From: Candidatus Multivorans sp.
GTDB lineage: Bacteria; Acidobacteriota; Thermoanaerobaculia; Multivoradales; Multivoraceae
DNA length: 64,000 bases
Assembly: GCA_965247095.1 (NCBI GenBank)
Contig: OZ251997.1
Coordinates: forward strand, 832,001 to 896,000
Reading direction: 5' to 3'
The translations under genes were made by a program, and so were the position numbers. Positions 6,233-29,332 of the stretch are shown here, one piece after another; the first letter of the stretch is position 1; every line of letters starts with the position of its first letter. The notes under the pieces are model-generated. The model did not search any database and had not been told where the DNA came from. It was given only the letters and a program-made list of their open reading frames with translations.

Positions 6233-6242
6233 GGGGGCGCTC

Positions 6243-12000: not shown

Positions 12001-12501
12001 CAGGCGCAGCGCTCGCTTCTGGCCGAGACCGACCCTGCGGCGCCCCTAGCCGCACGGCTCGCCTCCGACCTGCGGGCGGCCGTCACCCAACGGCGGGTCA
12101 GGCTCGCGGACGCCCTGGCGGCCGCTGTGAGCGAACTCGCCGTGGACGCCACATGGCAGCGGCTCGACGGCGAGGCACAGCAGGAGATTCGCCGCGAGTG
12201 CCACCTGGAGCCGCCCGAGGATCTTCGGGTCGCGACGGACGACGAACTCCTTGCGAGCCTCGACGACCGACCGCTCTCCGCCTGGCAGTCCAACATCGAC
12301 GCTGTCCGCGAGCGAACGTCCCAGGCCCTGGCCGAGGCCGTCAGGCGTTTGCACGCGGAGGGCGAGAGTGCTGTTGCGCCCACGAGCGTCACGCTTCGCC
12401 GTGGAACGCTGGCCGACGAGGCGGCGGTGCGCGACTGGCTGCGGGAGCAGGAGGAGCGGTTGCTGGAGGCGGTGCGGAAGGGGCCGGTGGTGTTGCGGTG
12501 A
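9034..12501 (+). CDS. brxC: BREX P-loop ATPase BrxC
   Basis: WVSGFFGSGKSHLLK Walker A, VLDEVQQYIG Walker B, KLRDRF, YPLLP and PFGWPQDAVD; 1155 aa. Confidence 0.95.
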   Translation: MKIHDLLDRDPRGARLANNGQARIDGDDDQGTRVLREELATFVCDGKFGDALRRILDRYLSNLGSARQDAAWVSGFFGSGKSHLLKMAAHLWRNTEFADGATARGLAAASLPDDVVASLRELDTQARRVGQMPVAAAGTLLGGNEWVRRTVLEIILRARDWPAQYAQARFCSWLLDEGRLDAVRAAVETAGKDWRRELNNLYVSPFLARAVIDAVPGFAGDVPGARQAIHSQFPPTRVDITTEEFVDIARRALSGGGELPHTVLVLDEVQQYIGDDEARSSAITELAEAVQTRFDGRVMLIGAGQSALSADTPYLAKLRDRFVIRVELTDADVEAVTRKVLLRKKPSAVPAIEKLFETHAGEVARHLQNTRIGARAEDESHRVDDYPLLPTRRRFWEACFQAVDAGGGHSQLRSQLRILHDSLEVVAGRGLGAAIPASDLFGALAPDMVSTGVLLGELNTRIQRLDSGPEHGRLRRDLCGLAFLIGKLPREAAVDLGMRATPAAIADLMVSDIAEDASGFRGLVAEQLEFLAADGVLLKVGEEYRLQTTEGAEWDRAYREQVSALRQDEVEVARVRNQLFGRALEEAISSLRVTQGASKMRRTVKLHASSEAPSLDQEAVIVWLRDGWSCNRRAVENEARRAGVESPTLFVFLPRRHADALKDRILSVEAAQRVLNLKGSPASAEGQDAKAGMESRREDALRGRAELVLDTLRAASVYQGGGTEVHGEDLRQRIEAGAKASVARLFPDFDKGDHRAWEVALRRARNGSDTPLQVVGWDRATADHPVAREVLAKMGAGARGTELHRAMKAAPFGWPQDAVDAVLVALHRSGHVRVTRNGAPVPAGTLDQTGIKSAEFRPEKVVLTASQRIDLRELFQELGIRSRSGEEGSAARAFLDSLQALAVSAGGEAPLPPAPGTVFIDELSRLVGAEQLAAIHARREGIRESIAEWKALCERSGERLPVWRRLTGLLRHAANLPEAGSVSEEVSAIQAQRSLLAETDPAAPLAARLASDLRAAVTQRRVRLADALAAAVSELAVDATWQRLDGEAQQEIRRECHLEPPEDLRVATDDELLASLDDRPLSAWQSNIDAVRERTSQALAEAVRRLHAEGESAVAPTSVTLRRGTLADEAAVRDWLREQEERLLEAVRKGPVVLR

Positions 12502-12665
12502 GGGGCGGTTCTTCGAAGGTGCCTGAAGCGACAGGTGTTCGGCTGTGAAGGTGGAGTGCTCTACCTGCCGCGTGTGCCTGCGCAGGACCGGCTCGACTGG
12601 CGCAGCGTCGGCTGGCCGCTTCCAGAGTCCGGCACGGGTACCGCGGTGACTTGGGAGGTTTCAGA

Positions 12666-13844
12666 ATGACGTGCATTGACAGCATTCGACTTGACGGGTT
12701 CCTCTCGTTCCCACCCGGGTCGCCCGCGTTCGAGCTGCAGCCGCTGAACGTCCTGATCGGCCCCAACGGATCGGGGAAGTCGAACTTCATTGACGCGTTC
12801 GGGCTCCTGGCGGCTACTCCGCATGACTTCGCGGCGGCCGCTCGGGCTGGTGGGGCGGAAGAGTGGCTTTGGAAGGGAGACGGAGGTTCAGACCGGGCAC
12901 GGATCGAGATCGTGCTTGGCGACGGGACGCCGACGCGCAGGCCGCTCCGGTACGGGCTGGAGTTCGGGGTGGTCGGGAGGCGCGTGGAGGTTCTGGATGA
13001 GATGGTGGAGGAGGTCGAGCGGCTGCCCGGCAAGGACGATGTCTTTTTCTACTATCGGTTCCAGAAGGGGCGCCCGGCGATCAACGTTCGGCAGGCGGAT
13101 GGCGATTCCGTCAAGAGATTGCTCAAGCGGGAAAGCCTGCTGCCGGACCAGTCGGTCTTGGCCCAACGGAAGGACCCGGACCGGTATCCCGAAGTCACCT
13201 GGGTCGGGCGACGGCTGCCTTCGTTCGTGACCTTCCGCGAATGGACCTTCGGGCAGGACGCTCCCTTGCGTAGACCTCAGCCTGCTGACCTGCCGGACGA
13301 CTTGCTGTTGCGGGACAACCGGAATCTCGCTTTGGTGCTGAACTACATCAAGCACTCGGGCGAAACGCGGCTCGAAGAGCGGATGCGGGAGTTCTTCCCG
13401 CGGTTCGAGCGGCTGTCCACGCGCGTTGCCGGGGGCGCGGTGCAGTTCTACCTGCACGAGACGGGGTTCGCTTCGCCGATACCGGCCACTCGCCTTTCGG
13501 ACGGCACAGTCCGGTTCATGGCCCTGCTCGTCACACTGCTCAATCCCGTGCCGCCGCCGTTGGTGTGCATCGAAGAGCCGGAACTTGGGCTTCACCCCGA
13601 CGCCGTGTCGTCGGTGGCCGCAATGCTCGTCGAGGCCTCCGAACGCATGCAGTTGGTCGTCACGACGCACTCGGAGAGCTTGGTGAGTTCTCTGAGTAGT
13701 CGCCCCGAGGCGGTCGTGACTTGCGCACGGCCGGGCGCAGGAACCGAGTTACAGCGCCTTGATCCCGACGAGCTTGCAAGCTGGCTTGACGAGTATGGGC
13801 TCGACGACCTTTGGGCGAGGGGCGTGTTGGGAGCGAATCCGTGA
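12666..13844 (+). CDS. ABC-type ATPase (AAA_21/AAA_15-like)
   Basis: LIGPNGSGKSN, signature LSDGTVRF, Walker B IEEPELGLHPD and H-loop VTTHS; GGAGG RBS before ATG 12666. Confidence 0.92.
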   Translation: MTCIDSIRLDGFLSFPPGSPAFELQPLNVLIGPNGSGKSNFIDAFGLLAATPHDFAAAARAGGAEEWLWKGDGGSDRARIEIVLGDGTPTRRPLRYGLEFGVVGRRVEVLDEMVEEVERLPGKDDVFFYYRFQKGRPAINVRQADGDSVKRLLKRESLLPDQSVLAQRKDPDRYPEVTWVGRRLPSFVTFREWTFGQDAPLRRPQPADLPDDLLLRDNRNLALVLNYIKHSGETRLEERMREFFPRFERLSTRVAGGAVQFYLHETGFASPIPATRLSDGTVRFMALLVTLLNPVPPPLVCIEEPELGLHPDAVSSVAAMLVEASERMQLVVTTHSESLVSSLSSRPEAVVTCARPGAGTELQRLDPDELASWLDEYGLDDLWARGVLGANP

Positions 13845-14464
13845 GAGGTGTCCGGCTGTTCGTGGAAGGAGGAGGCGATACACGCGGAGGAGGTCGGGCC
13901 CTGCGGATCGGGTTCCAAGGGTTCCTTGGAGAGGTTCGGGAACGAGCCAGAGATAGGCGCAAGCGGTGGAATGTGGTGATGTGCGGCTCGCGGCGCAAGG
14001 CGTACGAGCGCTTTGTGAGAGAGGCTTCGGCTGCGAGGGAGGACTTCATCGTTCTCCTGGTCGATTCCGAAGAGGAAGTGACCAGGGCGCCGAAGGCGCA
14101 CTTGGCTGCAAGAAGCGGAGATGGGTGGACCGATTGGAATCAAACGCTGGAGAGTCAGGTCCACTTGATGGTCCAGACGATGGAGACCTGGTTGATCGCG
14201 GATATTGAGACTCTTCGTTCCTACTACGGCAGCCGCTTCAACGGCAATTCGCTGCCTAGGCGGCAGGACCTGGAGAAGGTCCCGAAAGAGAACGTCAGTT
14301 CGGCGCTCGCTCGGGCGACCCAGAAGACTCAGAAGGGCGAGTACCACAAGATCCGCCACGCCAGCGAGCTCCTGGCCCTGGTGGACCCTGAGAAAGCCAA
14401 GGAGCGTTGCCGGAATTGCAAGCGGCTGTTCGAAACTCTGACCTCGGTGATCGAGGCCGCCTGA
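13841..14464 (+). CDS. DUF4276 family protein (TOPRIM-like)
   Basis: LFVEGGG, LLVDSE, HLMVQTMETWLIAD and YHKIRHA; GTGA overlap with the ATPase stop. Confidence 0.8.
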   Translation: MRGVRLFVEGGGDTRGGGRALRIGFQGFLGEVRERARDRRKRWNVVMCGSRRKAYERFVREASAAREDFIVLLVDSEEEVTRAPKAHLAARSGDGWTDWNQTLESQVHLMVQTMETWLIADIETLRSYYGSRFNGNSLPRRQDLEKVPKENVSSALARATQKTQKGEYHKIRHASELLALVDPEKAKERCRNCKRLFETLTSVIEAA

Positions 14465-14465
14465 C

Positions 14466-17400
14466 GTGACCGAACCCCTCGCCCCGGAACTGCGCAAGCA
14501 GTTGGAGAAGGCCGTGCGCGACGCCCGGCGCCTTGGCGAAGCCGGCGCTCGCGCCGCGTTGCGGGCGTTGGCGGTGCACGAGTCACGGCCCTACGAGGGG
14601 GTGTCGGAGGACGAGCGTGCGCTGCGGCGGCGGCTTCGGGCCCACGGTCGCCAGTTGGGCGACGAGCCGAACCGGCAGAGGGGAACGCAGGCGATCGGGC
14701 GACTGGTCCACGAGGTGGCCTACGAGCACTGGCACCGGATGCTCTTCGCGCGGTTTCTGGCGGAGAACGGCCTGCTTGTGGAGCCCGAGTCCGGGGTTCC
14801 GGTGTCGCTTGAGGAGTGCGCCGAGTTGGCGCGGGAAGGGCGGGGCACGGATGGTTGGCAAGTTGCGGAGAGCTTTGCCGCCCGGATGCTGCCGCAGATC
14901 TTTCGGCCGGAAGACCCGGCGCTCGCGGTCACTCTGGCCCCGGAGACGCGGCAAGCACTGGAAAAGCTGGTCGCCGAACTGCCGGCGGCGGTGTTCACCG
15001 CGAGCGACTCGCTGGGTTGGACCTACCAGTTCTGGCAGACGGACCGGAAGGACGAGGTGAAGCGGTCGGGTGCGAAGATCGGTGCCGACGAGTTGCCGGC
15101 GGTGACACAGTTGTTCACCGAGAACTACATGGTCCGGTTCCTGTTCCAGAACACCATCGGTGCCTGGCGGGCCGGCAAGGTGCTGGCGGAGCGGCCCGAA
15201 GTGGCCGAGGGCGCCGCGAGCGAAGCGGAACTCGCGGAAGCGGTGCGCATCGAGCCGAGGGGCGGTCTGGAGGGGTACGACTTCGAGTACCTGCGGTTCG
15301 TCCGCGAACCGGCTGGCGGCGACGGCAAGGATGGGGACGAGGAACGTGCCGGGCCGCCCTGGCGGCCGGCAGCGGGTACTTTGTCTGGCTGGCCCCGCCG
15401 GGTCGCCGAACTGCGGGTGCTCGACCCGTGCTGCGGCAGCGGTCACTTCCTCGCCGAGGGTCTTGAACTCCTGGTTCGCCTCCGCATGGAGGAGGAAGAT
15501 CTCGGAGTCGAGGCGGCGGTGGGGGTCGTCCTTCGGGACAACCTCTTCGGCCTAGAGATCGACGAGCGCTGTACCCAGATTGCGGCCTTCAGCGTGGCCT
15601 TCGCCGCTTGGAAGCTCGTGGGCCGTCCGGTTGAGTTGCCTCCGCCTCAAATCGCGTGTTCTGGTCTCGCGCCGAGCGCTTCCAAGGAGGAGTGGCTGAG
15701 TCTGGCTGCCGGTCACCAGGAGTTGGAGGGTGCACTAGAGGAGCTTTGGAACTTGTTTCGGCAGGCTCCGACGCTCGGCTCCCTGCTCGACCCCGCAGGC
15801 GTAGACAGAGGGTTGTTCCGAGCAGACTACAAGGCAGTGGAGCAGTTGCTGGCTTCGGCGATGGCGAAGGAGAACTCAGGAGCAGAACAGAGGGAGCGGT
15901 CGGTGGCGGCGCGAGGCATGAACTACGCCAGGAAGCTGCTTGCTGGCGAGTACGATCTCGTCATCACCAACGTGCCGTACCTGGCCCGCGGAAAGCAAGA
16001 CGCCACGATGCAGGAGTTCGGAGACCGGGAGTACCCCGACGCGAAGAAGGAACTTGCCACGATGTTCGTGGCACGGATCAACCGGTGGCTGGGCGCGAGC
16101 GGCGTTCAAGCTGTCGTCGCCCAACAGTATTGGCTGTTTCTGACCAGCTATAGGGAGCTGCGTGGACGATTCCTACGAGCGCACACCTGGCGGCTATGGT
16201 CTCGTCTGGGTGCAGGGGCCTTTGAGGCGATCAGCGGAGAAGTTGTCAATGTCGCACTTACGGTCCTTTCTACCGAGAGGCCCAGCGATGAATGGCGCAT
16301 GGTCGGAATCGATGTGTCAACGCCGCGAGGCCAGAGGCCGATTCGGCCACGTGGCAAAGCGAGGCTGCTGCGAAGCGGCACGGCCCCGCCGGTCCTAGCA
16401 CTACAGTGCGACCAAACGCTCAACCCTGGAAGCCGCGTCCTTATGCGGCCGTTCCCAGGTGTGCCACTGCTGCGGACCGTTAGTTACGGCCATCAGGGCA
16501 TCGCTACGGCGGACTACGCGTGCTTTGGCAGGAAGTTCTGGGAGCTTCCGGAACTAGGCTCGAGCTGGGAGTTCCAGCAAAGCACTGTCCGGGAAACCAG
16601 TGATTTTGGAGGGCGTGAGCATGTCTTGCATTGGGAAGAAGGCGAAGGTCCGCTTCAACGCAGCGAAGGCGTACGTATACAGGGGGGGGGAGCATGGAGT
16701 AGAGAAGGCGTAGCCGTCTCTCAGATGGGCGCTCTGCCCGTCACGCGCTATACGGGAGAGTACTTCGACAACAACGTTGCCGTCTTGACGGTCAATGATC
16801 AGCGGTATCTTCCGGCCGTCTGGTGCTTTTGTTCAGCCAGTGACTACGCTGCGCGGATCGGCGAGATAGACCAAGCGCCCAAGGTCACCAACGCCAATCT
16901 CGTCGAGGTCCCGTTCGATCTCTCGTACTGGCAGGAGGTTGCGACAGAGGAGTATCCCAACGGCTTCCCCGAGCCCTACTCCGACGACCCGACCCAGTGG
17001 CTGTTCCACGGCCACCCTTGCGGCTCCGTGGTCTGGGACGAGGAGTCGAAATGGACCGCCCACGGTCCGCTCCGGGCAGACGCCTCCGTGCTCCAAGTCG
17101 CGGTGGCGCGGCTGCTCGGCTACCGCTGGCCGGCGGAGCTGGACCCCGACATGCGTCTGGCGGCGGAGTCGAGAGCGTGGGTCGAGCGGGGCCGGGAACT
17201 CGACGGCTTCGCCGACGCGGACGGCATCGTGTGCATTCAGGCCGCGGCAGGTGAACTGCCCGCAGCAGACCGCCTGCGGCGCCTGCTCGCGGCTGCCTAC
17301 GGTGAGGAGTGGTCGGCGGCGAAGGAGCAGGAACTCCTGGCGGCCGCTGCGGACGGCAAGAGGCCGGCCAAGTCACTCGATGAATGGCTGCGCGACCAGT

Positions 17401-18080
17401 TCTTCGCCGAGCACTGCAAGCTCTTGCACAACCGGCCATTCATCTGCCACATCTGGGACGGCCGCAGCGACGGCTTTCACGCTCTGGTCAACTACCACCG
17501 CCTCTGTGGCCCGGACGGCGAAGGGCGCCGAACCCTCGAGGCGCTCGCCTACCGCCACTTGGGCGAGTGGATCGACCGTCAGCGGGCAGCGCAGAGCCAG
17601 GGCGAGGAAGGCGCCGACGCGCGGCTTGCGGCGGCCCAGGACCTGCAACGCCAGTTGGCGCTCCTCCTGGAGGGCGAACCGCCCTACGACCTCTTCGTCC
17701 GCTGGCGGCCGCTCCACGAACAGCCGCGGGGCTGGGCGCCGAACCTCGACGATGGCGTGAGGCTCAACATCCGCCCCTTCATGCGCGCCGAACTCCAAGC
17801 CGGCGGGAGGAAGGGCGCCGGGATTCTCCGCGCCAAGCCGAACATCAAGTGGGGCAAGGACCGCGGCAAGGAGCCCGAGAGTCTCCGCCCCAGAGAGGAC
17901 TTCCCCTGGTTCTACTCTTGCCCCGGACAAGGTTCCGAGGCCGACCGCACGGACTACGCAGCGCCTGCGGAGGCCGCATACGATGGCAACCGCTGGAACG
18001 ACCTTCACTACACGCGGGCCGCCAAGGAAATGGCGCGTGCCCGGGCGGCCACGGGCGATGCGAGAGAACTAGGGCGATGA
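14466..18080 (+). CDS. pglX: BREX N6-adenine DNA methyltransferase PglX (BrxX)
   Basis: ELPAVTQLFTENYMV, VLDPCCGSGHFL (motif I), ITNVPY (motif IV variant), RPFICHIWDG and PNLDDGVRLNIRPF; 1204 aa. Confidence 0.95.
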   Translation: MTEPLAPELRKQLEKAVRDARRLGEAGARAALRALAVHESRPYEGVSEDERALRRRLRAHGRQLGDEPNRQRGTQAIGRLVHEVAYEHWHRMLFARFLAENGLLVEPESGVPVSLEECAELAREGRGTDGWQVAESFAARMLPQIFRPEDPALAVTLAPETRQALEKLVAELPAAVFTASDSLGWTYQFWQTDRKDEVKRSGAKIGADELPAVTQLFTENYMVRFLFQNTIGAWRAGKVLAERPEVAEGAASEAELAEAVRIEPRGGLEGYDFEYLRFVREPAGGDGKDGDEERAGPPWRPAAGTLSGWPRRVAELRVLDPCCGSGHFLAEGLELLVRLRMEEEDLGVEAAVGVVLRDNLFGLEIDERCTQIAAFSVAFAAWKLVGRPVELPPPQIACSGLAPSASKEEWLSLAAGHQELEGALEELWNLFRQAPTLGSLLDPAGVDRGLFRADYKAVEQLLASAMAKENSGAEQRERSVAARGMNYARKLLAGEYDLVITNVPYLARGKQDATMQEFGDREYPDAKKELATMFVARINRWLGASGVQAVVAQQYWLFLTSYRELRGRFLRAHTWRLWSRLGAGAFEAISGEVVNVALTVLSTERPSDEWRMVGIDVSTPRGQRPIRPRGKARLLRSGTAPPVLALQCDQTLNPGSRVLMRPFPGVPLLRTVSYGHQGIATADYACFGRKFWELPELGSSWEFQQSTVRETSDFGGREHVLHWEEGEGPLQRSEGVRIQGGGAWSREGVAVSQMGALPVTRYTGEYFDNNVAVLTVNDQRYLPAVWCFCSASDYAARIGEIDQAPKVTNANLVEVPFDLSYWQEVATEEYPNGFPEPYSDDPTQWLFHGHPCGSVVWDEESKWTAHGPLRADASVLQVAVARLLGYRWPAELDPDMRLAAESRAWVERGRELDGFADADGIVCIQAAAGELPAADRLRRLLAAAYGEEWSAAKEQELLAAAADGKRPAKSLDEWLRDQFFAEHCKLLHNRPFICHIWDGRSDGFHALVNYHRLCGPDGEGRRTLEALAYRHLGEWIDRQRAAQSQGEEGADARLAAAQDLQRQLALLLEGEPPYDLFVRWRPLHEQPRGWAPNLDDGVRLNIRPFMRAELQAGGRKGAGILRAKPNIKWGKDRGKEPESLRPREDFPWFYSCPGQGSEADRTDYAAPAEAAYDGNRWNDLHYTRAAKEMARARAATGDARELGR
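16682..16690 (+). repeat. G9 homopolymer inside pglX, currently in frame
   Basis: ATA CAG GGG GGG GGA GCA (IQGGGA); longest homopolymer I noticed in the window. Confidence 0.9.
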
Positions 18081-18502
18081 GTCGACTGAAGCAGGACAAT
18101 GGCGACGACTACCCTGAGGCTGCGCGCAAGCACCTCCTGGACGCGGCCGCACTTCTCTCGGCTGGGCGGCCGGATGGCTCGGCATACTTGGCCGGCTACG
18201 TCGTGGAGTGCTCCCTGAAGACTCTCCTGCAGATTGAGAAGGGGAGCGCAGATCGCATTCACATGCTCGCGGCCCTCCGCCGACAAGTGGCTGCTCTGGC
18301 GGTACAGGCGAACGTGACGACTGGGCGCTATTGCCTTGTGGCTGACAGACTTCTCTGCAATGCGGTGATCCTGAAGTGGAGACCGGAAATCCGCTATCGA
18401 GAACCGAGCACGTCGGCCGCAGACGCCCAAGCTTGGCAGCGAGAAGCTGCGGCGGTGTATTCCCGAGTCGTGGGCGCACTCATCCTTGATGGGAGGATCT
18501 GA
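18077..18502 (+). CDS. HEPN-like small protein
   Basis: 141 aa from ATG 18077 (ATGA overlap with the pglX stop): AARKHLLDAAALL...AYLAGYVVECSLK...HxLxxL...WRPEIRY, the helical HEPN pattern. Confidence 0.75.
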   Translation: MSRLKQDNGDDYPEAARKHLLDAAALLSAGRPDGSAYLAGYVVECSLKTLLQIEKGSADRIHMLAALRRQVAALAVQANVTTGRYCLVADRLLCNAVILKWRPEIRYREPSTSAADAQAWQREAAAVYSRVVGALILDGRI

Positions 18503-19839
18503 TGCTGCATCTTGACGAGGCCCAGGATCGGGTCGTGGATTGCCTCCGAGACTTCCTGCGCGAAAGGAGCCGCTCCTGGCGCGTTCTGCTCGTGTCGGAC
18601 GTCATGGCGCGGCAGCGCGTGGTCCTCTGGTGCCCGAAGACAAAGCGGCATTCCGCCACGGATGAGATCCAGAGGCGCCTCGCCGACGCGGGTGGGCCGT
18701 ACTGGTCCGGCGATGTCCTACTAGGGCAGGGCCCCGACGAGATGCCGGATGGCCCTTGGCAGGAAACAGCCTGGGACGAGGCGAGCGACGTCGGTGATGT
18801 GCCGGGCCTCCGTCTCCTGGAGCGGCATCTCTCCAAGGCAGGGTGGTTTGACGCTCCGGCCGAGCCGCCGTGGCTCCTGGGAAGGCGCAAGCGGGGCGGC
18901 GCCACCATCTGCGGGTTCTACTCGTTCAAGGGCGGCGTGGGCCGGTCCACGGCCCTGGCTGCTACGGCGCTGCAGTTTGCGGCCCGCGGTGATCGGGTGG
19001 CGGTACTGGACGCGGACCTCGATTCGCCAGGCGTTGGATCCCTGCTGCATGGCCACGACGGAGTCATTGCTGACGTGGGTTTGGTGGACTATCTCCTGGA
19101 AGCGCCGCTGATCGGAAACGCGGGAGCTTGTCGCCTGGATGACTTTCATCACCGTTGCCCTCCCGACCTTCATCACGGTCGAGGCGAGATCCTCGTCTTT
19201 CCTGCAGGGCGGATGAACCGCCGCTACATCGAGAAGTTGGCTCGGCTCGACTATGGCGCGAACAGTGCGGAACGTGCGTCGCATCCACTCGTCGACCTGC
19301 TGGAACAGATTCGAGCAGAACTGGATCCGCAGTGGATCCTGGTCGATGCGCGTGCCGGACTGGGCGAAGTATCCGGGTTTCTGACCGGGGGCGTTTGCCA
19401 TCTATATGTCCTGCTGGGAACTCTGGCGGACGCCAGTTGGCAAGGGTTGGAACTGGTCCTCGATCGCCTCGGCGGGCATCGCTTGCGTTCCGACCTGTCG
19501 CAGTGCGAGTGTCTCCTTGCCGCCGCGATGATTCCGCGAGGTCAGGGGGGCCAGTACGACCGCTTGATCGCCGGGTTCACAGATCGTGCGCGCGACATGT
19601 TCAGCAGGTCCTACTATGCGGAGTCGGGCGAGCGCGATTCGGCCTGGACCGTAGACGACCTCGCCAACGACAGTGACGCTCCGCACGTGCCGACAGGTCT
19701 TCCCTACGATCCCCAGTTGGCCGTGTTCACCGACTTGAGGGAGGTTGCTTCCGATGTCCTCTTGGGGTCCGGGTCCCCGTATCAGCGGCTTGCAGACCGG
19801 ATCCGAATGAGTGCAGAGCAACTGAGGGGAGGTAGGTAG
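18502..19839 (+). CDS. ParA/MinD-like ATPase with KGGVGR variant Walker A and an N-terminal extension
   Basis: FYSFKGGVGRSTAL, VAVLDADLDSPG, GLVDYL and ILVDARAGL; ~130-aa unknown N-terminal domain. Confidence 0.88.
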   Translation: MLHLDEAQDRVVDCLRDFLRERSRSWRVLLVSDVMARQRVVLWCPKTKRHSATDEIQRRLADAGGPYWSGDVLLGQGPDEMPDGPWQETAWDEASDVGDVPGLRLLERHLSKAGWFDAPAEPPWLLGRRKRGGATICGFYSFKGGVGRSTALAATALQFAARGDRVAVLDADLDSPGVGSLLHGHDGVIADVGLVDYLLEAPLIGNAGACRLDDFHHRCPPDLHHGRGEILVFPAGRMNRRYIEKLARLDYGANSAERASHPLVDLLEQIRAELDPQWILVDARAGLGEVSGFLTGGVCHLYVLLGTLADASWQGLELVLDRLGGHRLRSDLSQCECLLAAAMIPRGQGGQYDRLIAGFTDRARDMFSRSYYAESGERDSAWTVDDLANDSDAPHVPTGLPYDPQLAVFTDLREVASDVLLGSGSPYQRLADRIRMSAEQLRGGR

Positions 19840-21360
19840 GTGACGACGGGACGTTTGACGAAGGCGGCCTGCGCGGGCCTGCGTGCCGAACTGCGGGACC
19901 TCGGCTACGGGCAGGCCGAAACCGAGGCGGCGCACAGCTTCAGGCGGCGGCTGCACCCGGTTCCGCAGCATCTGCGAGCACTCGACCCCACGGTCGTGCT
20001 GGTCGTGGGTCCTCGTGGCGCCGGCAAGAGCGAGTTGTTTCGCGCCTTTTTCAAGGAAGATGAGTCAGGAGATCTGGCGGCCGCCATCCTGGCGCGTGTG
20101 GCCGACCAAGTCCGAATCTCCGCATCCCCGGAGCGGTCGACCTGGGTTGACGCGTTTCCAGCCGGAACGGACTTCCCAGACACTGGGGCCATCGCCCGGG
20201 AGATCCGCACCGAGGAGCGTGCGAAGGAGCTATGGCGCTTGATGCTGTTGCGGCGTCTCGGGTCTCATCTGAACCCGGAACGACGGCTCGCTCTGGAGCC
20301 GATGCTCCGGCATATGGCAGCTGACTTGGGTGAGGTGTTTGAAGCCGCCGACGGCCTCGATGTCAATCCGACCGCCGCTTTGGACGAGTTGGAGATGAGG
20401 CTCGAGGGGGATGATCGCTGGCTGTTTGTCGGCTACGACGAACTCGACACCCTGGGTGGTTTCGACTGGGAACTGACCGCGCGCTTGGTTCGCGGTCTCG
20501 TGTCCTTCTGGTCGGACTACAGCCGTCGATGGCGACGCATCCGCGCGAAGGTGTTTCTCCGCTCGGACCTGTTTCGACGCCATGCCGGGATGGGGACGGC
20601 AGACTTCGCCAAATTGGCGGCGAATCGAGTCGAGCTCGGCTGGCCGGACGCTGCGATTCTGGGGATGCTGATTAAGCGCATCGCGAACACTTCGGCCGGG
20701 TTGGCCGACTATTGCCGGAATGCCAGGATCGAGTTCGATGAAGACGAGGAACTCGGGCTCGTTCCCAGGATCGACCGCCCCGGTCAGGCTCATCGCCTGA
20801 TCGAGCGAATGGCCGGCGAGTTCATGGGCGCCAATCGGAAGAAGGGGCTGGTCAGGAACTGGGTCTTCGACCACCTGCGGGACGGAGTCGGCGCTGTTTC
20901 GCCGAGGAACTTCGTTCGCTTGTTCGAGCTTGCCGCGGGCAAGGAGGCAGCGAATCAGGCGCTTCGGCCCCCGCGGCTATTGCACCCGACGGCGTTGCGC
21001 CAAGCCTTGGACGACATGTCGGATGATCACGTTCGGCAGGGCGCGACCAGCGAGTGGCCCTGGCTCGATGGTGTTGGCAGGCGGCTTCGCTTGGACCCGT
21101 TGGCACCGTGGACGCGACGCCGGATGATCGGACTGCTCGAGTCGGATGAGGTGGAGGGCTGGGGAGCTCCCGGGCTCGGGGAGGTACAGCCTCCCGAGGA
21201 GGATCCCTCAGCCCTCCTGGAGTACCTGGTCGAACTCGGCATTCTGCGGCGTCGGGCAGATGATCGGCTCGATGTTCCGGACCCCTACCTGTACGGCCTG
21301 GGTCTCCGGCGAAAGGGAGGTGTGAAGGTCGGCAGGCGCACTAGGCGGCGCGCTCGATGA
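19840..21360 (+). CDS. P-loop NTPase (Sll1717-like) with probable C-terminal winged helix
   Basis: VVGPRGAGKSEL Walker A, FVGYDELD Walker B, KVFLRSDLF, SPRNF and LVELGILRRRADDRLDVPDPYLYGLGLRRKGG. Confidence 0.8.
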   Translation: MTTGRLTKAACAGLRAELRDLGYGQAETEAAHSFRRRLHPVPQHLRALDPTVVLVVGPRGAGKSELFRAFFKEDESGDLAAAILARVADQVRISASPERSTWVDAFPAGTDFPDTGAIAREIRTEERAKELWRLMLLRRLGSHLNPERRLALEPMLRHMAADLGEVFEAADGLDVNPTAALDELEMRLEGDDRWLFVGYDELDTLGGFDWELTARLVRGLVSFWSDYSRRWRRIRAKVFLRSDLFRRHAGMGTADFAKLAANRVELGWPDAAILGMLIKRIANTSAGLADYCRNARIEFDEDEELGLVPRIDRPGQAHRLIERMAGEFMGANRKKGLVRNWVFDHLRDGVGAVSPRNFVRLFELAAGKEAANQALRPPRLLHPTALRQALDDMSDDHVRQGATSEWPWLDGVGRRLRLDPLAPWTRRRMIGLLESDEVEGWGAPGLGEVQPPEEDPSALLEYLVELGILRRRADDRLDVPDPYLYGLGLRRKGGVKVGRRTRRRAR

Positions 21361-21498
21361 TGACGGAGGACCCTCGTCGGCACAAATGTGCACAGAGCCG
21401 AGTCGCAGCCTATGCGGGAACTGGTTCGGGGCCGGCGTTGACTGACTACGGCGGCTCGCCGTACGGCGAACGCCGCCGAGTCGAGCTTCGCCTGAAGC

Positions 21499-23871
21499 GT
21501 GCCTGAGACCAGGGAGATGGCATCGGGAGCTGCGGCCGTCACGTCTGCCATCGCCGACACCGCCCTTGACCGCCTGATCGCCAGCCTGCGCGACAAGGCG
21601 GCCGGCCTGGACGGCCAGGAACCGCCGGCCGCCGTGCTCTGGCCCGACCCGCAGGGCGAGTGGCGCTCGCTCATCGGTGCACTTCGTGAGCGGCTGCCTG
21701 AGCTGTTCGTGCTGGGCGACTTCGACGAGAAGGCGCGCAGGGGGCCGGCGATCTGGCTGCGGGCATTGATCGAGGGAGCGCTTGACGCGCCCTCACGGCC
21801 CGAGGGCGCGACACCGATCCTCTACCTGCCCGAGGTGTCTCGCCAGCAACTCCGGGCGGGCGACGACTGCCCGAACCGTTTGAAGCCCCTCGTGGAACTG
21901 CTCTACCGGGGCACCGTGTGGGTTCACCCGAACGGCCGCGAGTGGACGGTGCGCGGGTTCCTCGGTTCGCCGAAGTCGCTCGGCCTCGATGTGGCGGACG
22001 ACAACGCAACGAGGTTGGCGCTGCTGCAGGCTCTGCCCGAGGTTGCTGCTGTGCCCCTGTCCCGGCTCGGTGGAAGGCGCTTGGACGCGGATTACTTCCA
22101 CCGCTTGCTGACCCCCGATCTGCCGCGCGATGTCCTCCGGTGGATGGTGGAAGGTGGCGCGATGGCGGCTCGGCTCGGCGCAGAGAAGTGGGATGCCTTC
22201 CGCAGCCGTTGCCGCTCCGAACTCGGCCTCGACCCACAGACGGAACCGGATGTTGTGGCCGGGGAGCGGCTGGGCGCCGGTTCGGGTGAGTGGGCCCGGG
22301 TCTGGGGCCGGTTCCTGGAGTCGCCGGAGAACTACGCGCCCGTCGCGGACGTGCTGCTCCGAAGCCGGCCCGCATCCGTGCCGCTGTTCGATCGCGAGCG
22401 CTGGCCCCATCTGAACGCCGCCGACGAGGAGAGTCTGCGCCGGAGGCTTGGCGAGGCGGCCGGACTGAATCACGAGGCCGCCTGTGACCGGGTGATCGAG
22501 CTCGAAGAGGAACACGGCGCCCGGCGAGGCTGGGTCTGGGCGCGCCTGGGCCGATCCCCGATGGCGGCTGTGATCGGGCCGCTGGCGCAGCTCGGCCGTG
22601 AAGCCCGGACGACACTGGGAGGCGCCACGCCCGGCGAGATTGCTTCGGCCTATGTCGAGCACGGCTGGAGAGCGGATGCCGCGGCCCGGGAGGCTCTGGC
22701 AGCCGCTCGAACCGGGGAACAGGAACTTGTAGCCGGGATCGTAGGGCGCTTGGCTCTCCCATGGCTCGAGGACTCGGCTCACGCCTTCCAAAGTGCCGTC
22801 GAGCGCGAGGCATTGCCGGCGCGGGGCGATCAGCCGTTGATCGAAGCGCAGGATGATGTCTGCCTGCTGTTCGTGGACGGCCTTCGCTACGAACTGGCTC
22901 GGGCCTTGGCGGAACGGCTCGAACCGAGAGGCTTCGGCACGGACCTACAGCATCGCTGGGCGGCGCTTCCGACTCTGACGGCGACGGGGAAGCCCGCGGC
23001 GACCCCGGTGGCCGGGGACATCGGCGGGGGAATGCTCGGCGGCGACTTCGAACCGAGCTTCGTAGCCACCGGCAAGCGGGCCGATGCCCAGGCGCTCCGA
23101 GCCGCGATGGAGCGGCGCGGCTATCGGATTCTCGGCGCCGGGACGTTTGATGCGCCAATGGGCACTCAGGCCCGGGGTTGGGCGGAGTGGGGCAAGATCG
23201 ACACCCTCGGACACGAGCTTGACGCGGTGGACTTCGCTCGGAAGATCGAGGATGAACTGGAGAGCTTGAGGGAGCGCATCGCGCGGCTGCTGGCGGTCGG
23301 CTGGAGGGCCGTTCGGGTGACTACCGATCATGGTTGGCTGCTGATGCCGGGAGGCTTGCCCAGAGTGGATCTGCCGCAGCACCTGACGGTTTCGAGGGGA
23401 GCTCGTTGTGCCGCGATTGCCGGTGAATCGAGACCGGACGCGCTGATCGCGCCGTGGCATTGGAACGCGAACGAGTCGTTCGCCACGGCCAGGGGCATCG
23501 GCGCGTTCCGCCGATCGGTGGAGTACGCCCACGGCGGCTTGAGCATCCAGGAGTGCCTGATACCGGATCTCCTGGTGAGGGCAACCGGCCGGGTCGAAGC
23601 TGTGGCTAGCATCACGACGATTACTTGGCGAGGATTCCGGTGCCTGGCTGAAGCTACCGTCGGTGGCGCCGAAGTGACGGCGGACCTACGTTTGCGGGAC
23701 GACCTGAGCCGGTCCGTAGCCGGTTCCGGCAAGCCGGTGGAGGCCGACGGCCTGGTGAGCCTGCTGCTCGCCGACGACGATCACGAACATTCGCGGCTGG
23801 TTCTCGTCCTGGTCGATGACGAGGATCGAATTCTCGACCGCCGCGAGACTGCCGTGGGAGAGGACTCGTGA
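21499..23871 (+). CDS. pglZ: BREX PglZ (alkaline-phosphatase-superfamily domain, type B-like)
   Basis: AAVLWPDP, GPAIWLR, LFVDGLRYE, LPTLTATGK, VTTDHGWLL and YAHGGLSIQEC. Start may be ATG 21517. Confidence 0.95.
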   Translation: MPETREMASGAAAVTSAIADTALDRLIASLRDKAAGLDGQEPPAAVLWPDPQGEWRSLIGALRERLPELFVLGDFDEKARRGPAIWLRALIEGALDAPSRPEGATPILYLPEVSRQQLRAGDDCPNRLKPLVELLYRGTVWVHPNGREWTVRGFLGSPKSLGLDVADDNATRLALLQALPEVAAVPLSRLGGRRLDADYFHRLLTPDLPRDVLRWMVEGGAMAARLGAEKWDAFRSRCRSELGLDPQTEPDVVAGERLGAGSGEWARVWGRFLESPENYAPVADVLLRSRPASVPLFDRERWPHLNAADEESLRRRLGEAAGLNHEAACDRVIELEEEHGARRGWVWARLGRSPMAAVIGPLAQLGREARTTLGGATPGEIASAYVEHGWRADAAAREALAAARTGEQELVAGIVGRLALPWLEDSAHAFQSAVEREALPARGDQPLIEAQDDVCLLFVDGLRYELARALAERLEPRGFGTDLQHRWAALPTLTATGKPAATPVAGDIGGGMLGGDFEPSFVATGKRADAQALRAAMERRGYRILGAGTFDAPMGTQARGWAEWGKIDTLGHELDAVDFARKIEDELESLRERIARLLAVGWRAVRVTTDHGWLLMPGGLPRVDLPQHLTVSRGARCAAIAGESRPDALIAPWHWNANESFATARGIGAFRRSVEYAHGGLSIQECLIPDLLVRATGRVEAVASITTITWRGFRCLAEATVGGAEVTADLRLRDDLSRSVAGSGKPVEADGLVSLLLADDDHEHSRLVLVLVDDEDRILDRRETAVGEDS

Positions 23872-25931
23872 ACTCACTGAACCTCGAAATGGACCGTCTT
23901 GACGAACTCGCCGCGGAGGCGTTTCCGGGCTACCTGGTGCGGAAGGACTTGGTGCGGCGTTACGCCCGAACGTATCCGGTGCCGACCTACGTGGTCGAGT
24001 TCCTTCTCGGGCGCTACTGCGCGAGCGTGGACGAGGACGAGATCACCGAAGGCCTGGTCATCGTCGAGAAGCAACTCGAAGGGCGGACGGTACGGCCGAG
24101 CGAGCAGGAGATGTTCAAGTCGCGCGCCCGGGAGAAGGGCTCCGTCAAACTGATCGACATCGTCCGCGCCCGGCTCGATGCTCGCAACGATCGCTACCTT
24201 GCCGAACTGCCGAGCCTCGGCTTGAGGGACATCGATGTCGCGGACGCGATCGTCAAAGACAACCAGCGGATGCTGACCGACGGCTTCTACGCCGAGGTGA
24301 CGCTCGAGTACGACGCGGTCGTCGCAGTGGACGAGCGCGGCAACCCGTTCCGCATCTCGTCCCTCCGGCCGATTCAGATGTCGGAACCGCGGGTGCTCGA
24401 CGTGTTCGCGCGCGGGCGCGGTCACTTCACGACAGGCGAGTGGTGTGACTTTCTGATGCGGTCCGTGGGCCTGGAACCAGGGGCGTTGGACGATCGCGCG
24501 AAGCGCGTGGCCCTACTCCGAATGGTCCCGTTCGTGGAGCGGAACTACGACCTTGTGGAACTCGGCCCTCGCGGCACGGGGAAGAGTCACATCTTCCAGC
24601 AAATATCGCCGTACTCACACCTGCTCTCGGGCGGCAAGGCGACCGTCGCCAAGATGTTCGTGAACATGGCCAACGGCCAGCGCGGCTTGGTGTGCCAGTA
24701 CGACGTCGTGTGTTTCGACGAGGTCTCCGGCGTCTCTTTCGATCAGAAGGACGGCGTGAACATCATGAAGGGCTACATGGCCTCGGGCGAGTTCAGCCGC
24801 GGGAAGGAGAGCATCCGGGCTGACGGTGGCATCGTCATGGTGGGCAACTTCGATGTCGACGTGGAGCAGCAGCAGCGCATCGGGCACCTGCTCAGCCCGC
24901 TGCCGAAGGAAATGCGGGACGACACCGCCTTCCACGACCGGATCCACGCTTACGCTCCGGGCTGGGACTTCCCGAAGCTGAATCCCGAGAACCACCTGAC
25001 GAATCACTTCGGGCTGGTCTGTGACTTCCTGAGCGAGTGCTGGAATCAGTCCCGGCAGTCGAGCCGGTTGAGTGCCCTGCAGAACCGAGTCTTTTGGGGC
25101 GGCGCCCTTAGCGGCCGGGACATCGAAGCAGTCAACAAGACGTGCTCGGGCCTCTTGAAACTCCTGTACCCCGACCAGGAGATGCCAGTAGAAGATGAGG
25201 ATCTGGAGTGGATCGTGCGGCTGGCCCTGGAGTCACGGCGGCGCGTGAAGGAGCAGCAGAAGCGTTGTCTCAGGAGCGAGTTCAGCAACACGCACTTTTC
25301 CTTCACTCTGGGCGTTGATGGAGTGGAGCAGTTCGTCGCTACGCCGGAGCTTCACAGCGATGAGGCGATCGATAGCGATCCGCTACCGCCCGGACAGGTC
25401 TGGGCGATTGGTCCGGGAACCGGCGAGACGGGCGCCGGGCTGTACCGGATCGAAGTTGCGATCGGCCCTGGCAGTGGCGTGAAGATCCTCAACCATCCGG
25501 TACCGCCGGCCTTTCGCCAGGGTGTCAAGGTTGGTGAGCAGAACTTGTACCGTGCGGCGAAGGGACTCGTGGGCCATCGTGACCCGCGGGGCTATGAGTA
25601 CTCGGTTCAACTTCGGCCCTTCGATGCCGACAGGTCCGGTGTTGGACTCGGTATGCCGGTGCTGGCCGCTTTCGTCGGAGCACTCCTCGATCGCGGAACG
25701 CGCGGCGGCGCGATCGTTGTCGGCCCCTTGAATCTCGGAGGGAGCACAGACCTCATCGCGGATCCCGTCGGCATCGCCGAGCTGGCCGTGGACAAGCGGG
25801 CAACGACGCTGCTGATGCCCGTCAGCGCCCGGCGCGCGCTCAATGATCTGCCGGACGATCTCTGGACCAAGGTCAATATCGAGTACTACAGCGACCCGAC
25901 GGACGGCGTCTTCAAGGCTTTGCTGCCTTGA
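23868..25931 (+). CDS. brxL: BREX Lon-like AAA+ protein BrxL
   Basis: VPTYVVEFLLGRYC, ELGPRGTGKSH, VVCFDEV, MKGYMASGEFSRG, DTAFHDRIH and a C-terminal Lon-like domain. Confidence 0.95.
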   Translation: MNSLNLEMDRLDELAAEAFPGYLVRKDLVRRYARTYPVPTYVVEFLLGRYCASVDEDEITEGLVIVEKQLEGRTVRPSEQEMFKSRAREKGSVKLIDIVRARLDARNDRYLAELPSLGLRDIDVADAIVKDNQRMLTDGFYAEVTLEYDAVVAVDERGNPFRISSLRPIQMSEPRVLDVFARGRGHFTTGEWCDFLMRSVGLEPGALDDRAKRVALLRMVPFVERNYDLVELGPRGTGKSHIFQQISPYSHLLSGGKATVAKMFVNMANGQRGLVCQYDVVCFDEVSGVSFDQKDGVNIMKGYMASGEFSRGKESIRADGGIVMVGNFDVDVEQQQRIGHLLSPLPKEMRDDTAFHDRIHAYAPGWDFPKLNPENHLTNHFGLVCDFLSECWNQSRQSSRLSALQNRVFWGGALSGRDIEAVNKTCSGLLKLLYPDQEMPVEDEDLEWIVRLALESRRRVKEQQKRCLRSEFSNTHFSFTLGVDGVEQFVATPELHSDEAIDSDPLPPGQVWAIGPGTGETGAGLYRIEVAIGPGSGVKILNHPVPPAFRQGVKVGEQNLYRAAKGLVGHRDPRGYEYSVQLRPFDADRSGVGLGMPVLAAFVGALLDRGTRGGAIVVGPLNLGGSTDLIADPVGIAELAVDKRATTLLMPVSARRALNDLPDDLWTKVNIEYYSDPTDGVFKALLP

Positions 25932-25956
25932 TGCCGATGGCCGCGGCTGGAGCGTC

Positions 25957-27990: not shown

Positions 27991-27998
27991 GTGCAACG

Positions 27999-29108: not shown

Positions 29109-29113
29109 CCCTA

Positions 29114-29266
29114 GCGCGGCAGAACTACCGGAGGCCGGCGCTTCGCGCCGGATGCGGGCAGGATGCCCGCGTGCCATCCGTGCGCCCGATGACGGGCGCA
29201 CGGAGTGGTTCGCGTGTGGCGCGGGTCGCGCCACACGGGTTCCCAGGCCAGATCGTTCTGCCGCGC
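29114..29266. mobile_element. 153-bp MITE/REP composite element, copy 1
   Basis: 12-bp terminal inverted repeats GCGCGGCAGAAC/GTTCTGCCGCGC enclosing four hairpins; near-identical to 35458-35610. Confidence 0.85.
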
Positions 29267-29332
29267 AGTCTCCTGGGACGGAAGAGGCTATCGAAGGCGC
29301 GACGAAGCCATCTCGTCACCTACTCCCCGCAC

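What the first reader, a model, noticed from the sequence alone, without database searches (positions are those of the whole stretch)
18077..21360. Candidate undescribed defence module: HEPN-like + ParA/MinD (KGGVGR) + second P-loop ATPase, nested between pglX and pglZ
Seen: three tightly coupled ORFs (ATGA overlap with pglX, TGATG overlap, then zero-gap TAG-GTG). They encode a 141-aa HEPN-fold protein, a MinD/ParA ATPase with Walker A KGGVGRS (Arg for the usual Lys) plus an unknown N-domain, and a 506-aa NTPase with a probable winged-helix end. Known: the interior of BREX loci hosts independent back-up defence systems, and HEPN domains are frequent RNase effectors. Inference: this is a self-contained sensor/switch/effector system covering BREX failure. 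I cannot match it to a named system. There is no parB beside it, so partitioning is unlikely. The HEPN protein lacks a canonical Rx4-6H and shows H..L and W....RY instead, so its effector chemistry is open.
Basis: partly seen in the sequence, partly recalled or inferred. Interest (0 to 1): 0.9.

Follow-up and report, generated by a model that had tools for sequence, protein, structure and literature searches.

The report
HEPN–ParA–ORC cassette inside BREX
Three tightly packed genes nested in a BREX phage-defence locus form a real, widely conserved cassette, but it is already catalogued as a candidate defence system (PADLOC PDC-M28, also described as 'HINPO') and nobody appears to have tested its function.

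Summary
Three coupled ORFs (141, 445 and 506 aa) lie between pglX and pglZ of a complete type 1 BREX locus. The claim that they are undescribed does not hold. All three proteins match the PADLOC candidate PDC-M28 over nearly their full length (A 6e-11, B 7e-53, C 2e-59). The architecture is the 'HINPO' system of a 2026 preprint by Li, Burroughs and Aravind: upstream HEPN, a ParA with Arg in Walker A plus an N-terminal domain, and a downstream ORC/Cdc6-like AAA+ ATPase.

The cassette is therefore an autonomous mobile passenger in BREX and a predicted defence module, with no experimental test found. I could not test the reported nucleotidyltransferase fold of B's N-terminal domain. Novelty is low.

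The parts
18077..18502 (+). Gene A: 141-aa HEPN-fold protein (PADLOC PDC-M28A; the 'PA-HEPN1' position of HINPO). Invariant L26, G40, E44, C45, K48, H62, W101, R106, Y107 and G139.
18502..19839 (+). Gene B: 445-aa ParA/MinD-clade protein with the variant Walker A motif KGGVGRS (PDC-M28B).
   Evidence: Translation. PDC-M28B 6.7e-53 over residues 3-414. NF047398 7.2e-44. 25-sequence alignment with invariant G144, G145, G147, S149, D170, D172, D174, P176, G177 and D282; K143 and R148 are conserved in at least 90%.
18502..18894 (+). N-terminal domain of B (residues 1-131). It has no family hit here. Li et al. report it as an inactive Pol-beta-type nucleotidyltransferase (iNTase).
   Evidence: An N-terminal stretch ahead of the P-loop could be delimited in 77 of 80 homologues: 109-142 aa in 72 and 60-94 aa in 5, the shortest probably being start-codon miscalls. 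Alignment A6. The fold was not confirmed here. The claim was read.
18904..19470 (+). ParA-like P-loop core of B (residues 135-323): Walker A KGGVGRS at 143-149, LDADLDSPG at 169-177, VDARAG at 281-286.
   Evidence: NF047398 covers residues 135-323. A profile search of PDB sequences aligns only the P-loop stretch, to Mrp/NBP35, ArsA, ParA and MinD.
19840..21360 (+). Gene C: 506-aa AAA+ ATPase of the ORC/Cdc6/BrxC-like kind (PDC-M28C; NCBIfam Sll1717 family). Walker A spans residues 57-64 and Walker B residues 199-203. The C-terminal helix/strand region at 409-491 is a probable winged helix.
   Evidence: Translation. PDC-M28C 1.6e-59 over residues 14-496. NF047389 3.4e-23. 41-sequence alignment. 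Model pLDDT 92.8. Foldseek top matches are BrxC 9zll/9zdx at 3.5e-7, Cdc6 1fnn, 2qen and Orc 1w5t/2qby.
14466..18080 (+). Context only: pglX of the host type 1 BREX locus. Its stop codon overlaps the start of A.
   Evidence: PADLOC PglX E 0. Sequence.
21499..23871 (+). Context only: pglZ of the host BREX locus, 138 nt after C.
   Evidence: PADLOC PglZ 3.7e-250. Sequence.

Best explanation
The three genes are one copy of a widespread, horizontally mobile three-gene cassette. [quoted passage not shown] In this genome it is a passenger embedded in a type 1 BREX operon, not a BREX component.

Shown here:
- the family memberships of the three proteins
- the conserved A-B-C gene order
- natural B-C fusions
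- occurrence mostly outside BREX and on plasmids
- patchy distribution among close relatives

Inferred mechanism (not shown):
- C is an ORC/Cdc6/BrxC-like AAA+ ATPase with intact Walker A and B motifs and a probable winged-helix end. It senses invader DNA or a replication state.
- C acts together with B, and the B-C fusions argue for a physical partnership.
- B is a ParA-type dimerising nucleotide switch. Its P-loop Lys is replaced by Arg while the 'signature' Lys is kept, which fits a slow switch or assembly scaffold better than a fast ATPase.
- B's N-terminal domain may add a second, small-molecule input.
- The activated B-C assembly then releases or activates A. A is a small HEPN-fold protein with an invariant His at the HEPN catalytic position. 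It would cut RNA and stop growth of the infected cell.
For: Identity:
- PADLOC PDC-M28A, B and C match at 6.3e-11, 6.7e-53 and 1.6e-59, each over nearly the whole model.
- NCBIfam KGGVGR-motif ATPase scores 150 bits against a cut-off of 90, and the Sll1717-family ATPase 82.5 bits against 75.
- The HINPO description (section 22 read in full) lists an upstream HEPN, a ConB2-clade ParA with Arg for the Walker A Lys and a PG motif after the sensor, an N-terminal fused domain, a downstream ORC-CDC6/STAND AAA+ ATPase, and occasional ParA-ORC fusion. I found each of these except the fold of the N-domain.

Conservation:
- Of 80 related loci, C follows B in 77, A precedes B in 71 by profile search, and B and C share one open frame in 16.

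Autonomy and mobility:
- BREX genes lie nearby in only 6 of 80 loci.
- In L019 the A-B module (no C detected) sits between brxC and pglX on the opposite strand.
- Complete trios occur on an Enterobacter asburiae IncF conjugative plasmid, beside an integrase and a TIR protein, and on a Calothrix plasmid beside a type III restriction subunit.
- Among 36 other genomes of the same genus, a near-full-length orthologue was found in one (G026, 79%). G030 has a 73% match to residues 1-348 only, and G022 holds a remnant.

Folds:
- H62 of A aligns with the His of the 1wol Rx5H stretch.
- The C model is closest to the BrxC ATPase and Cdc6/Orc1.
- The core of B aligns to Mrp, ArsA, ParA and MinD P-loops.
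Against: - I found no experiment on this system. 'PDC-M28', 'KGGVGR' and 'Sll1717' return 0 papers, and 'HINPO' returns only the computational preprint. Tested PDCs have sometimes shown no activity.
- The neighbours of the non-BREX copies are mixed. 119 genes from 34 loci include H+-pyrophosphatase, CTP synthase and a tRNA synthetase alongside DruA, type I RM, HmaB, transposase and other PDCs. A defence-island setting is therefore not general.
- A lacks the canonical Rx4-6H arginine, both in the window protein and as a conserved feature of its family, so RNase activity is not assured.
- A is absent or reduced to remnants in 6 loci where upstream DNA is present. B and C are still intact in L006 and L040. 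This argues against A being indispensable.
- I could not confirm the iNTase fold.
Confidence: 0.8

Rival explanations
1. Same family, different mechanism (the model of Li, Burroughs and Aravind). The ORC-like protein senses invader DNA and guides multimeric assembly of the ParA protein, and that assembly itself blocks the invader. The HEPN protein is only a backup suicide or dormancy effector, and the N-terminal inactive nucleotidyltransferase senses nucleotides.
For: Stated in section 22 and in the discussion passages of the preprint. B-C fusions in 16 of 80 loci show that B and C form the core. A is missing with B and C intact in L006 and L040, and is reduced to remnants in L013 and L020, with weaker traces in L010 and L029.
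Against: A is kept in 71 of 80 loci with ten invariant residues, including His at the HEPN catalytic position. That is strong selection for a mere backup part. L013 and L020, which lost A, also have a truncated or missing C, so they may simply be decaying copies. There is no evidence that this ParA polymerises.
Confidence: 0.3
2. The trio is a dedicated accessory or regulator of BREX. It works only together with the BREX proteins, for instance by sensing BREX inhibition.
For: It is translationally coupled to pglX (ATGA overlap). No promoter- or terminator-like site above chance lies within the operon. Embedding in BREX recurs in at least four lineages: window/L006/L007, L011/L012, L019 and weakly L026. 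The closest solved fold to C is the BrxC ATPase.
Against: 74 of 80 related loci have no BREX gene in the DNA held. Complete trios lie on plasmids without BREX. In L019 the module is on the opposite strand. Other unrelated passengers (HEC-01, Ppl, pAgo/SIR2-like genes) occupy the same BREX interiors. BrxC belongs to the same broad ORC/STAND clade, so fold likeness is expected anyway (passage).
Confidence: 0.05
3. The cassette is not an anti-phage system. It is a maintenance or addiction module of mobile elements, with a toxin-like HEPN held in check by two ATPases, or it serves another cellular role.
For: Copies lie on conjugative and large plasmids. ParA relatives classically serve partition. 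The neighbours of chromosomal copies are mixed and often housekeeping.
Against: There is no parB or centromere-binding partner: the adjacent genes here are pglX and pglZ. The canonical Walker A Lys is replaced. The cassette is repeatedly embedded in BREX beside other defence genes. No copy was found in 50,697 phage records. An addiction role and a defence role are not mutually exclusive.
Confidence: 0.1

Closest known systems
[quoted passage not shown]
   Same: Gene order HEPN, ParA with an N-terminal extra domain, ORC/Cdc6-like AAA+ ATPase. Arg in place of the Walker A Lys and a PG motif after the DxD sensor. ParA-ORC fusions in some genomes.
   Different: I found nothing that differs. The preprint's main text does not mention BREX embedding for HINPO ('BREX' occurs once, for another domain) and does not cite PADLOC candidates. 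I could not verify the inactive-NTase fold of the N-domain. The family's sequence definitions are in supplements I could not open.
PADLOC phage-defence candidate PDC-M28 (PADLOC-DB v2.0.0; candidates from Payne, Hughes, Fineran and Jackson, bioRxiv 10.1101/2024.01.29.577857)
   Same: All three proteins match the A, B and C models over nearly their full length. The candidate class was defined by embedding in BREX, DISARM or type I RM, which is exactly the setting here.
   Different: PDC-M28 is not named in the main text of the preprint (0 occurrences of 'PDC-M'). Its composition and counts are in closed supplementary tables. No test of it was found.
Classical ParA/MinD/Mrp (SIMIBI) ATPases, e.g. 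ParABS partition
   Same: Deviant Walker A motif with the signature Lys (K143), a DxD sensor and a Walker B Asp. The P-loop region aligns to Mrp/NBP35, ArsA, ParA and MinD structures.
   Different: The P-loop Lys is replaced by Arg (R148). There is a ~130-aa N-terminal domain and a C-terminal extension. There is no ParB partner. Only about 50 residues align to solved relatives at the sequence level.
HEPN RNase effectors and toxins (HepT of HEPN-MNT pairs, Csm6, AbiV; classical PF05168 HEPN domains such as 1wol and 1ufb)
   Different: There is no conserved Rx4-6H arginine; the window protein has R60-x-H62. A second invariant cluster, W101...R106-Y107, is not part of the canonical motif. The partner is a ParA/AAA+ pair, not an MNT antitoxin.
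BrxC / ORC-Cdc6 / STAND-clade AAA+ ATPases
   Same: They are the best fold matches of C: 9zll and 9zdx BrxC at E 3.5e-7 to 4e-6, and 1fnn, 1w5t and 2qby Cdc6/Orc1. The Walker A and B motifs are intact.
   Different: TM-scores are low (0.27-0.36) over a multidomain model. C is much shorter than BrxC (506 aa against 1155 aa in this window). No Pfam family reaches its threshold (AAA_16 24.9 bits against 32.6).

Membership tests
HINPO system (Li, Burroughs and Aravind 2026) | An upstream gene encoding a HEPN-fold protein (PA-HEPN1) | tested here: met
HINPO system (Li, Burroughs and Aravind 2026) | A ParA of the ConB2 assemblage: Arg in place of the Walker A Lys, and a PG motif downstream of the sensor | tested here: met
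   KGGVGRS, with R148 conserved in at least 90% of 25 homologues. LDADLDSPG, with D170, D172, D174, P176 and G177 invariant. NF047398 scores 150 bits. Placement in the authors' tree was not tested.
HINPO system (Li, Burroughs and Aravind 2026) | An N-terminal domain fused to ParA with a Pol-beta nucleotidyltransferase fold and no catalytic residues | tested here: inconclusive
   An N-terminal stretch is present: it was delimited in 77 of 80 homologues, 109-142 aa in 72 and shorter in 5, probably through start-codon miscalls. Its fold was not shown. A profile search of PDB sequences found only designed proteins (E 0.037). hhalign against 22 PF01909 proteins gave probability 0.2%. Two Atlas searches were blank.
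HINPO system (Li, Burroughs and Aravind 2026) | [quoted passage not shown] | tested here: met
   The C model has pLDDT 92.8. There are 13 Foldseek matches with E <= 0.001, led by BrxC, Cdc6/Orc1 and 2qen. C follows B in 77 of 80 loci.
HINPO system (Li, Burroughs and Aravind 2026) | ParA and the ORC-like component fused in some members | tested here: met
   B and C share one open frame in 16 of 80 loci. One of these (L007) looks like a deletion-fusion.
PADLOC PDC-M28 | Matches to the three protein models PDC-M28A, B and C | tested here: met
   A: 6.3e-11, residues 10-132 on model positions 3-130 of 138. B: 6.7e-53, residues 3-414 on 4-407 of 438. C: 1.6e-59, residues 14-496 on 9-477 of 480.
PADLOC PDC-M28 | PADLOC's own system rule (required genes, maximum separation, score cut-offs) | not testable with these tools
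   Only the HMMs are on hand. The three genes are adjacent and co-oriented, which any such rule should accept.
ParABS-type partition system | A ParB or other centromere-binding partner beside ParA, and the canonical KGGxGK[ST] Walker A motif | tested here: not met
   The adjacent genes are pglX, the HEPN gene, the AAA+ gene and pglZ. The Walker A Lys is Arg.
Canonical HEPN RNase | A conserved Rx4-6H motif | tested here: not met
   H62 is invariant, but the Arg is not conserved in position. The window protein has R60-x-H62. The fold itself is met. This lowers the claim 'canonical HEPN RNase', not the claim 'HEPN-fold effector'.
Type 1 BREX (as a core component) | The trio genes co-occur with the BREX core genes | tested here: not met
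   The host locus has BrxA, BrxB, BrxC, PglX, PglZ and BrxL. But 74 of 80 trio loci show no BREX hit in the DNA held. Some of those contigs are short.

The most novel reading that the evidence does not exclude
In the BREX-embedded copies the cassette is functionally wired to BREX. Its ORC/BrxC-like ATPase, whose closest solved fold is BrxC itself, would monitor the BREX complex or its inhibition by phage proteins. When BREX is disarmed it would fire the HEPN protein, which would cut RNA with a non-canonical active site (invariant His62 with Arg106-Tyr107 supplied from another helix in place of Rx4-6H).
Probability: 0.08. Interest if true: 0.6.

Novelty: already known. Interest (0 to 1): 0.27.

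Why it matters
The finding adds no new kind of system. A standard PADLOC run would label this locus PDC-M28, and a recent preprint describes the architecture in detail.

What remains of value is modest:
- It ties two independent names (PDC-M28 and HINPO) to one cassette.
- It documents a BREX operon carrying two embedded passengers (HEC-01 and this trio), with a PsyrTA pair directly downstream of brxL.
- It gives residue-level targets for a first experiment: the invariant residues of the HEPN protein, the Arg-for-Lys P-loop of B and the Walker motifs of C.
- It points to an Enterobacter plasmid copy that should be easy to test in E. coli.

The system is widespread. I found no experimental test of it, so a first functional study would still be worthwhile.

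Tried and rejected
**Complex prediction.** I sent B, C residues 1-406 and A as the partner (collected). The verdict was 'no answer' (score 0.31, mark 0.32). I draw nothing from it.

**iNTase fold of B's N-domain.**
- A profile of 49 N-domains against PDB sequences gave only designed proteins.
- hhalign against 22 PF01909 nucleotidyltransferases from the window's genome and its relatives gave probability 0.2%.
- The Atlas returned no usable hit for P0002 residues 1-132 or P0114 residues 1-128.

**Expression.** No RNA run holds the stretch. Only DNA runs were listed, probably including the source sample.

**Promoter and terminator scan of 12400-29400.** It found 1 promoter-like and 10 terminator-like sites. 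Shuffled sequence gives 1.2 and 9.4, so this is chance level.

**Phage records.** P0002 had no match in them.

**Neighbourhood tally.**
- I scanned only 119 of the 241 neighbour genes I had picked. Set 1 lost 6 genes to the size limit, and set 2 (116 genes) was never scanned.
- The tool lists only the top 25 families, so I cannot say what share of neighbours are defence genes.

**Partition function.** Rejected: there is no ParB and the Walker A motif is variant.

**Named, validated systems.** No PADLOC model other than PDC-M28 matched the trio, apart from short P-loop hits to mad8 and PDC-S01 with E around 0.006-0.008.

**Supplements.** These were closed. They include Tables S3-8 of Payne et al. 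and Supplementary Figs S2Q, S6 and S7 of Li et al. They may hold the exact definition, counts and alignments of PDC-M28 and HINPO, and could bear on the HEPN catalytic status and the iNTase claim.

Full report
**1. What is in the sequence**

The window has about 68% G+C. On the + strand it carries a run of co-oriented genes that PADLOC models identify as a complete type 1 BREX system:
- BrxA, 7671-8456
- BrxB, 8453-9037
- BrxC, 9034-12501
- PglX, 14466-18080
- PglZ, 21499-23871
- BrxL, 23868-25931

The three ORFs of the finding lie between pglX and pglZ, at exactly the stated coordinates: A 18077-18502 (141 aa), B 18502-19839 (445 aa) and C 19840-21360 (506 aa). The junctions ATGA, TGATG and TAG-GTG read as described. 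A gap of 138 nt separates C from pglZ. A consensus scan finds no promoter- or terminator-like sites above the shuffled expectation anywhere in 12400-29400. That is compatible with one long operon but proves nothing.

**2. What the three proteins are**

A passes the Pfam HEPN threshold (24.3 bits against 22).
- Its AlphaFold model, built on 49 homologues, has pLDDT 94.5.
- Foldseek puts only classical HEPN domains in the top eight rows, at weak E-values of 0.016-0.1.
- Ten residues are invariant across the 49 sequences: L26, G40, E44, C45, K48, H62, W101, R106, Y107 and G139.
- A profile-to-PDB alignment (E 0.069) places H62 on the His of the R-x5-H stretch of 1wol, and E44/K48 on its E..K pair.
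- The Arg of Rx4-6H is not conserved in position. The window protein has R60-x-H62.

B is a ParA/MinD-clade P-loop protein.
- NCBIfam's 'KGGVGR-motif variant AAA ATPase' covers residues 135-323 at 150 bits against a cut-off of 90.
- In 25 homologues the signature Lys (K143) and the Arg that replaces the P-loop Lys (R148) are each conserved in at least 90%.
- LDxDLDxPG and VDARAG are invariant at their key positions.
- Only about 50 residues around the P-loop align to solved Mrp/NBP35, ArsA, ParA and MinD structures.
- An N-terminal stretch ahead of the P-loop could be delimited in 77 of 80 homologues. It measures 109-142 aa in 72 of them and 60-94 aa in 5, where the start codon was probably miscalled.

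C has intact Walker A (G57, G60, G62, K63) and Walker B (D200, D203) motifs in 41 homologues.
- It matches NCBIfam's 'P-loop ATPase, Sll1717 family'.
- Its model has pLDDT 92.8.
- The closest solved folds are the N-terminal ATPase of BrxC (9zll and 9zdx, E 3.5e-7 to 4e-6), archaeal Cdc6/Orc1 (1fnn, 1w5t, 2qby) and PABY2304 (2qen). TM-scores are low (0.27-0.36), as expected for a multidomain model.
- The independent VIA search for C never ran because the machine was busy.

**3. It is a conserved, autonomous cassette**

B has many full-length relatives: 551 hits among the 8000 candidates scored. They come from Acidobacteriota, Spirochaetia, Longimicrobiales, Planctomycetota, Elusimicrobia, Myxococcota, Chloroflexota, Cyanobacteria, Lachnospiraceae, Chryseobacterium, Comamonas and Sorangium.

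I searched the stop-to-stop frames of these loci with the window's proteins.
- C lies directly after B in 77 of 80 loci. The misses are L019 and L020, where no C was found, and L059, where the contig ends.
- A lies directly before B in 60 of 80 by single-sequence search and in 71 of 80 by profile search.
- Of the nine profile misses, three are contigs that start at B (L032, L036, L070).
- L013 and L020 keep recognisable remnants of A, L010 and L029 keep weaker traces, and L006 and L040 keep none.
- B and C share a single open frame in 16 of 80 loci. Fifteen of these frames are about 880-950 aa, and one (L007) is a deletion-fusion. This is classical Rosetta-stone evidence that B and C work as one unit.

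BREX genes occur near the trio in only 6 of 80 loci: L006, L007, L011, L012, L019 and, weakly, L026.
- In L019 the module lies between brxC and pglX on the opposite strand.
- In L006 and L012 it shares the BREX interior with Ppl and pAgo/SIR2-like genes.

Complete trios also lie on two plasmids. Local HMM E-values for A, B and C are 1e-18, 3e-50 and 6e-74 for the first and 4e-34, 4e-66 and 2e-141 for the second.
- One is an Enterobacter asburiae IncF conjugative plasmid, where the trio sits next to an integrase, a TIR-domain protein and a GNAT/DUF1778 pair.
- The other is a Calothrix plasmid, where it sits next to a type III restriction subunit.

No phage record holds a relative.

Among 36 other genomes of the window's genus, a near-full-length orthologue turned up in one (G026, 79%). 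G030 has a 73% match to residues 1-348 only, and G022 holds a remnant. This distribution is patchy and accessory.

The immediate neighbours of the non-BREX copies are heterogeneous. I scanned 119 genes from 34 loci, two on each side of the trio. They include H+-pyrophosphatase, CTP synthase and a tRNA synthetase alongside DruA, type I RM, HmaB, other PDCs and transposase domains. No fourth gene is conserved, and the setting is not uniformly a defence island.

**4. It is already described**

All three proteins match the PADLOC candidate PDC-M28 over nearly the full length of each model. [quoted passage not shown] I read the outline, section 10 and passages of bioRxiv 10.1101/2024.01.29.577857. 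PDC-M28 is not named in the main text, and its details are in supplements I could not open.

Independently, Li, Burroughs and Aravind describe the 'HINPO' system (bioRxiv 10.64898/2026.10.19.760177, 22 Oct 2026). I read section 22 in full, plus passages. Their description has these parts:
- a ParA of their ConB2 assemblage, with Arg for the Walker A Lys and a PG motif after the sensor
- an upstream 'PA-HEPN1' gene
- a downstream ORC-CDC6/STAND AAA+ gene, sometimes fused to the ParA

This is the cassette found here, feature for feature. That preprint does not mention PADLOC or PDCs (0 hits), so the equation PDC-M28 = HINPO is my own inference. It rests on the HMM matches and the matching architecture.

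Neither source reports an experiment on this system. Searches of the library gave the following:
- 'PDC-M28', 'KGGVGR' and 'Sll1717' gave 0 papers.
- 'HINPO' gave 10 papers, of which only the preprint is relevant.
- Other PDCs have been tested with mixed results. Passages of the cold-seep preprint report 4 of 8 candidates active. Passages of PMC12409345 report 2 of 2 inactive in their native host.

**5. How it most likely works (inferred)**

I take the B-C unit as the sensor and switch.
- C has a complete AAA+ catalytic set and belongs to a clade that loads on DNA or acts as a conformational switch.
- B keeps the ParA dimerisation lysine but has Arg in the P-loop. In P-loop NTPases generally this favours binding over fast hydrolysis (established knowledge, not tested here).
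- A is kept under strong constraint, with ten invariant residues including the HEPN His. It is always a separate small protein, and its gene is coupled to B's.

I therefore favour A as the RNase effector that the B-C unit controls, giving growth arrest or abortive infection. The authors of HINPO instead make ParA multimerisation the primary action and HEPN a backup. The B-C pairs that have lost A (L006, L040) fit their view. I give that variant about 0.3. A BREX-specific accessory role is unlikely (0.05), because most copies lie outside BREX. A pure plasmid-maintenance role (0.1) cannot be excluded.

**6. Verdict**

The functional guess is reasonable and shared by two published computational analyses. 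The one HINPO feature I could not confirm is the nucleotidyltransferase fold of B's N-domain. Interest is low to moderate: the system is catalogued, widespread and apparently untested.

Noticed in passing
window 12651-14464 (+): A second embedded system lies between brxC and pglX. It consists of a HEC-01A-like ABC ATPase (PADLOC 2e-144) followed by a DUF4276 protein (Pfam 4e-23). This is the two-gene HEC-01 layout that Payne et al. list among the Hma-embedded candidates they cloned for testing.
   Followed up: partly
window 25843-29108 (+): A PsyrT (E 6e-266) and PsyrA (E 4e-107) pair lies directly after brxL. The listed PsyrA ORF overlaps PsyrT by about 450 nt, and the model match starts at residue 159, so its true start is probably near 28010.
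   Followed up: no
own genome G000:C1 about 3048720-3051230; L003 316-2244 (-) and 2251-2820 (-): A second ParA-like protein matches the PDC-M28B model over its P-loop core (E 2.6e-18 and 5.7e-10). It is 642 aa, with the ParA domain at the N-terminus and a long unassigned C-terminal part. A gene for an HTH_31 protein precedes it. It is probably another ParA-based conflict system.
   Followed up: partly
L006 2635-9942 and L012 3419-9572: In two related BREX loci the genes just upstream of the trio are Ppl (E 1e-128 to 1e-139) and pAgo/SIR2-like pieces. The BREX interior there carries several stacked passengers. L006 has lost the HEPN gene.
   Followed up: partly
L013, L020 (clear); L010, L029 (weak): Short remnants of the HEPN gene lie directly upstream of B in loci that lack an intact A. 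L013 and L020 also have a truncated or missing C, so they look like decaying copies.
   Followed up: partly
L064 11047-13344; L043 11241-16964; L060 1682-4189: Some C homologues are extended. One is 766 aa with a TPR tail. One reads through to 1908 aa with a second P-loop or helicase-like region. One is 836 aa with no Pfam hit.
   Followed up: no
L122 (NZ_CP063442.1 78224-81560) and L123 (AP025020.1, trio at locus 4480-7810): Complete trios lie on an Enterobacter asburiae IncF conjugative plasmid, beside an integrase, a TIR-domain protein and a GNAT/DUF1778 pair, and on a Calothrix plasmid, beside a type III restriction subunit. The Enterobacter copy is a convenient candidate for tests in E. 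coli.
   Followed up: partly
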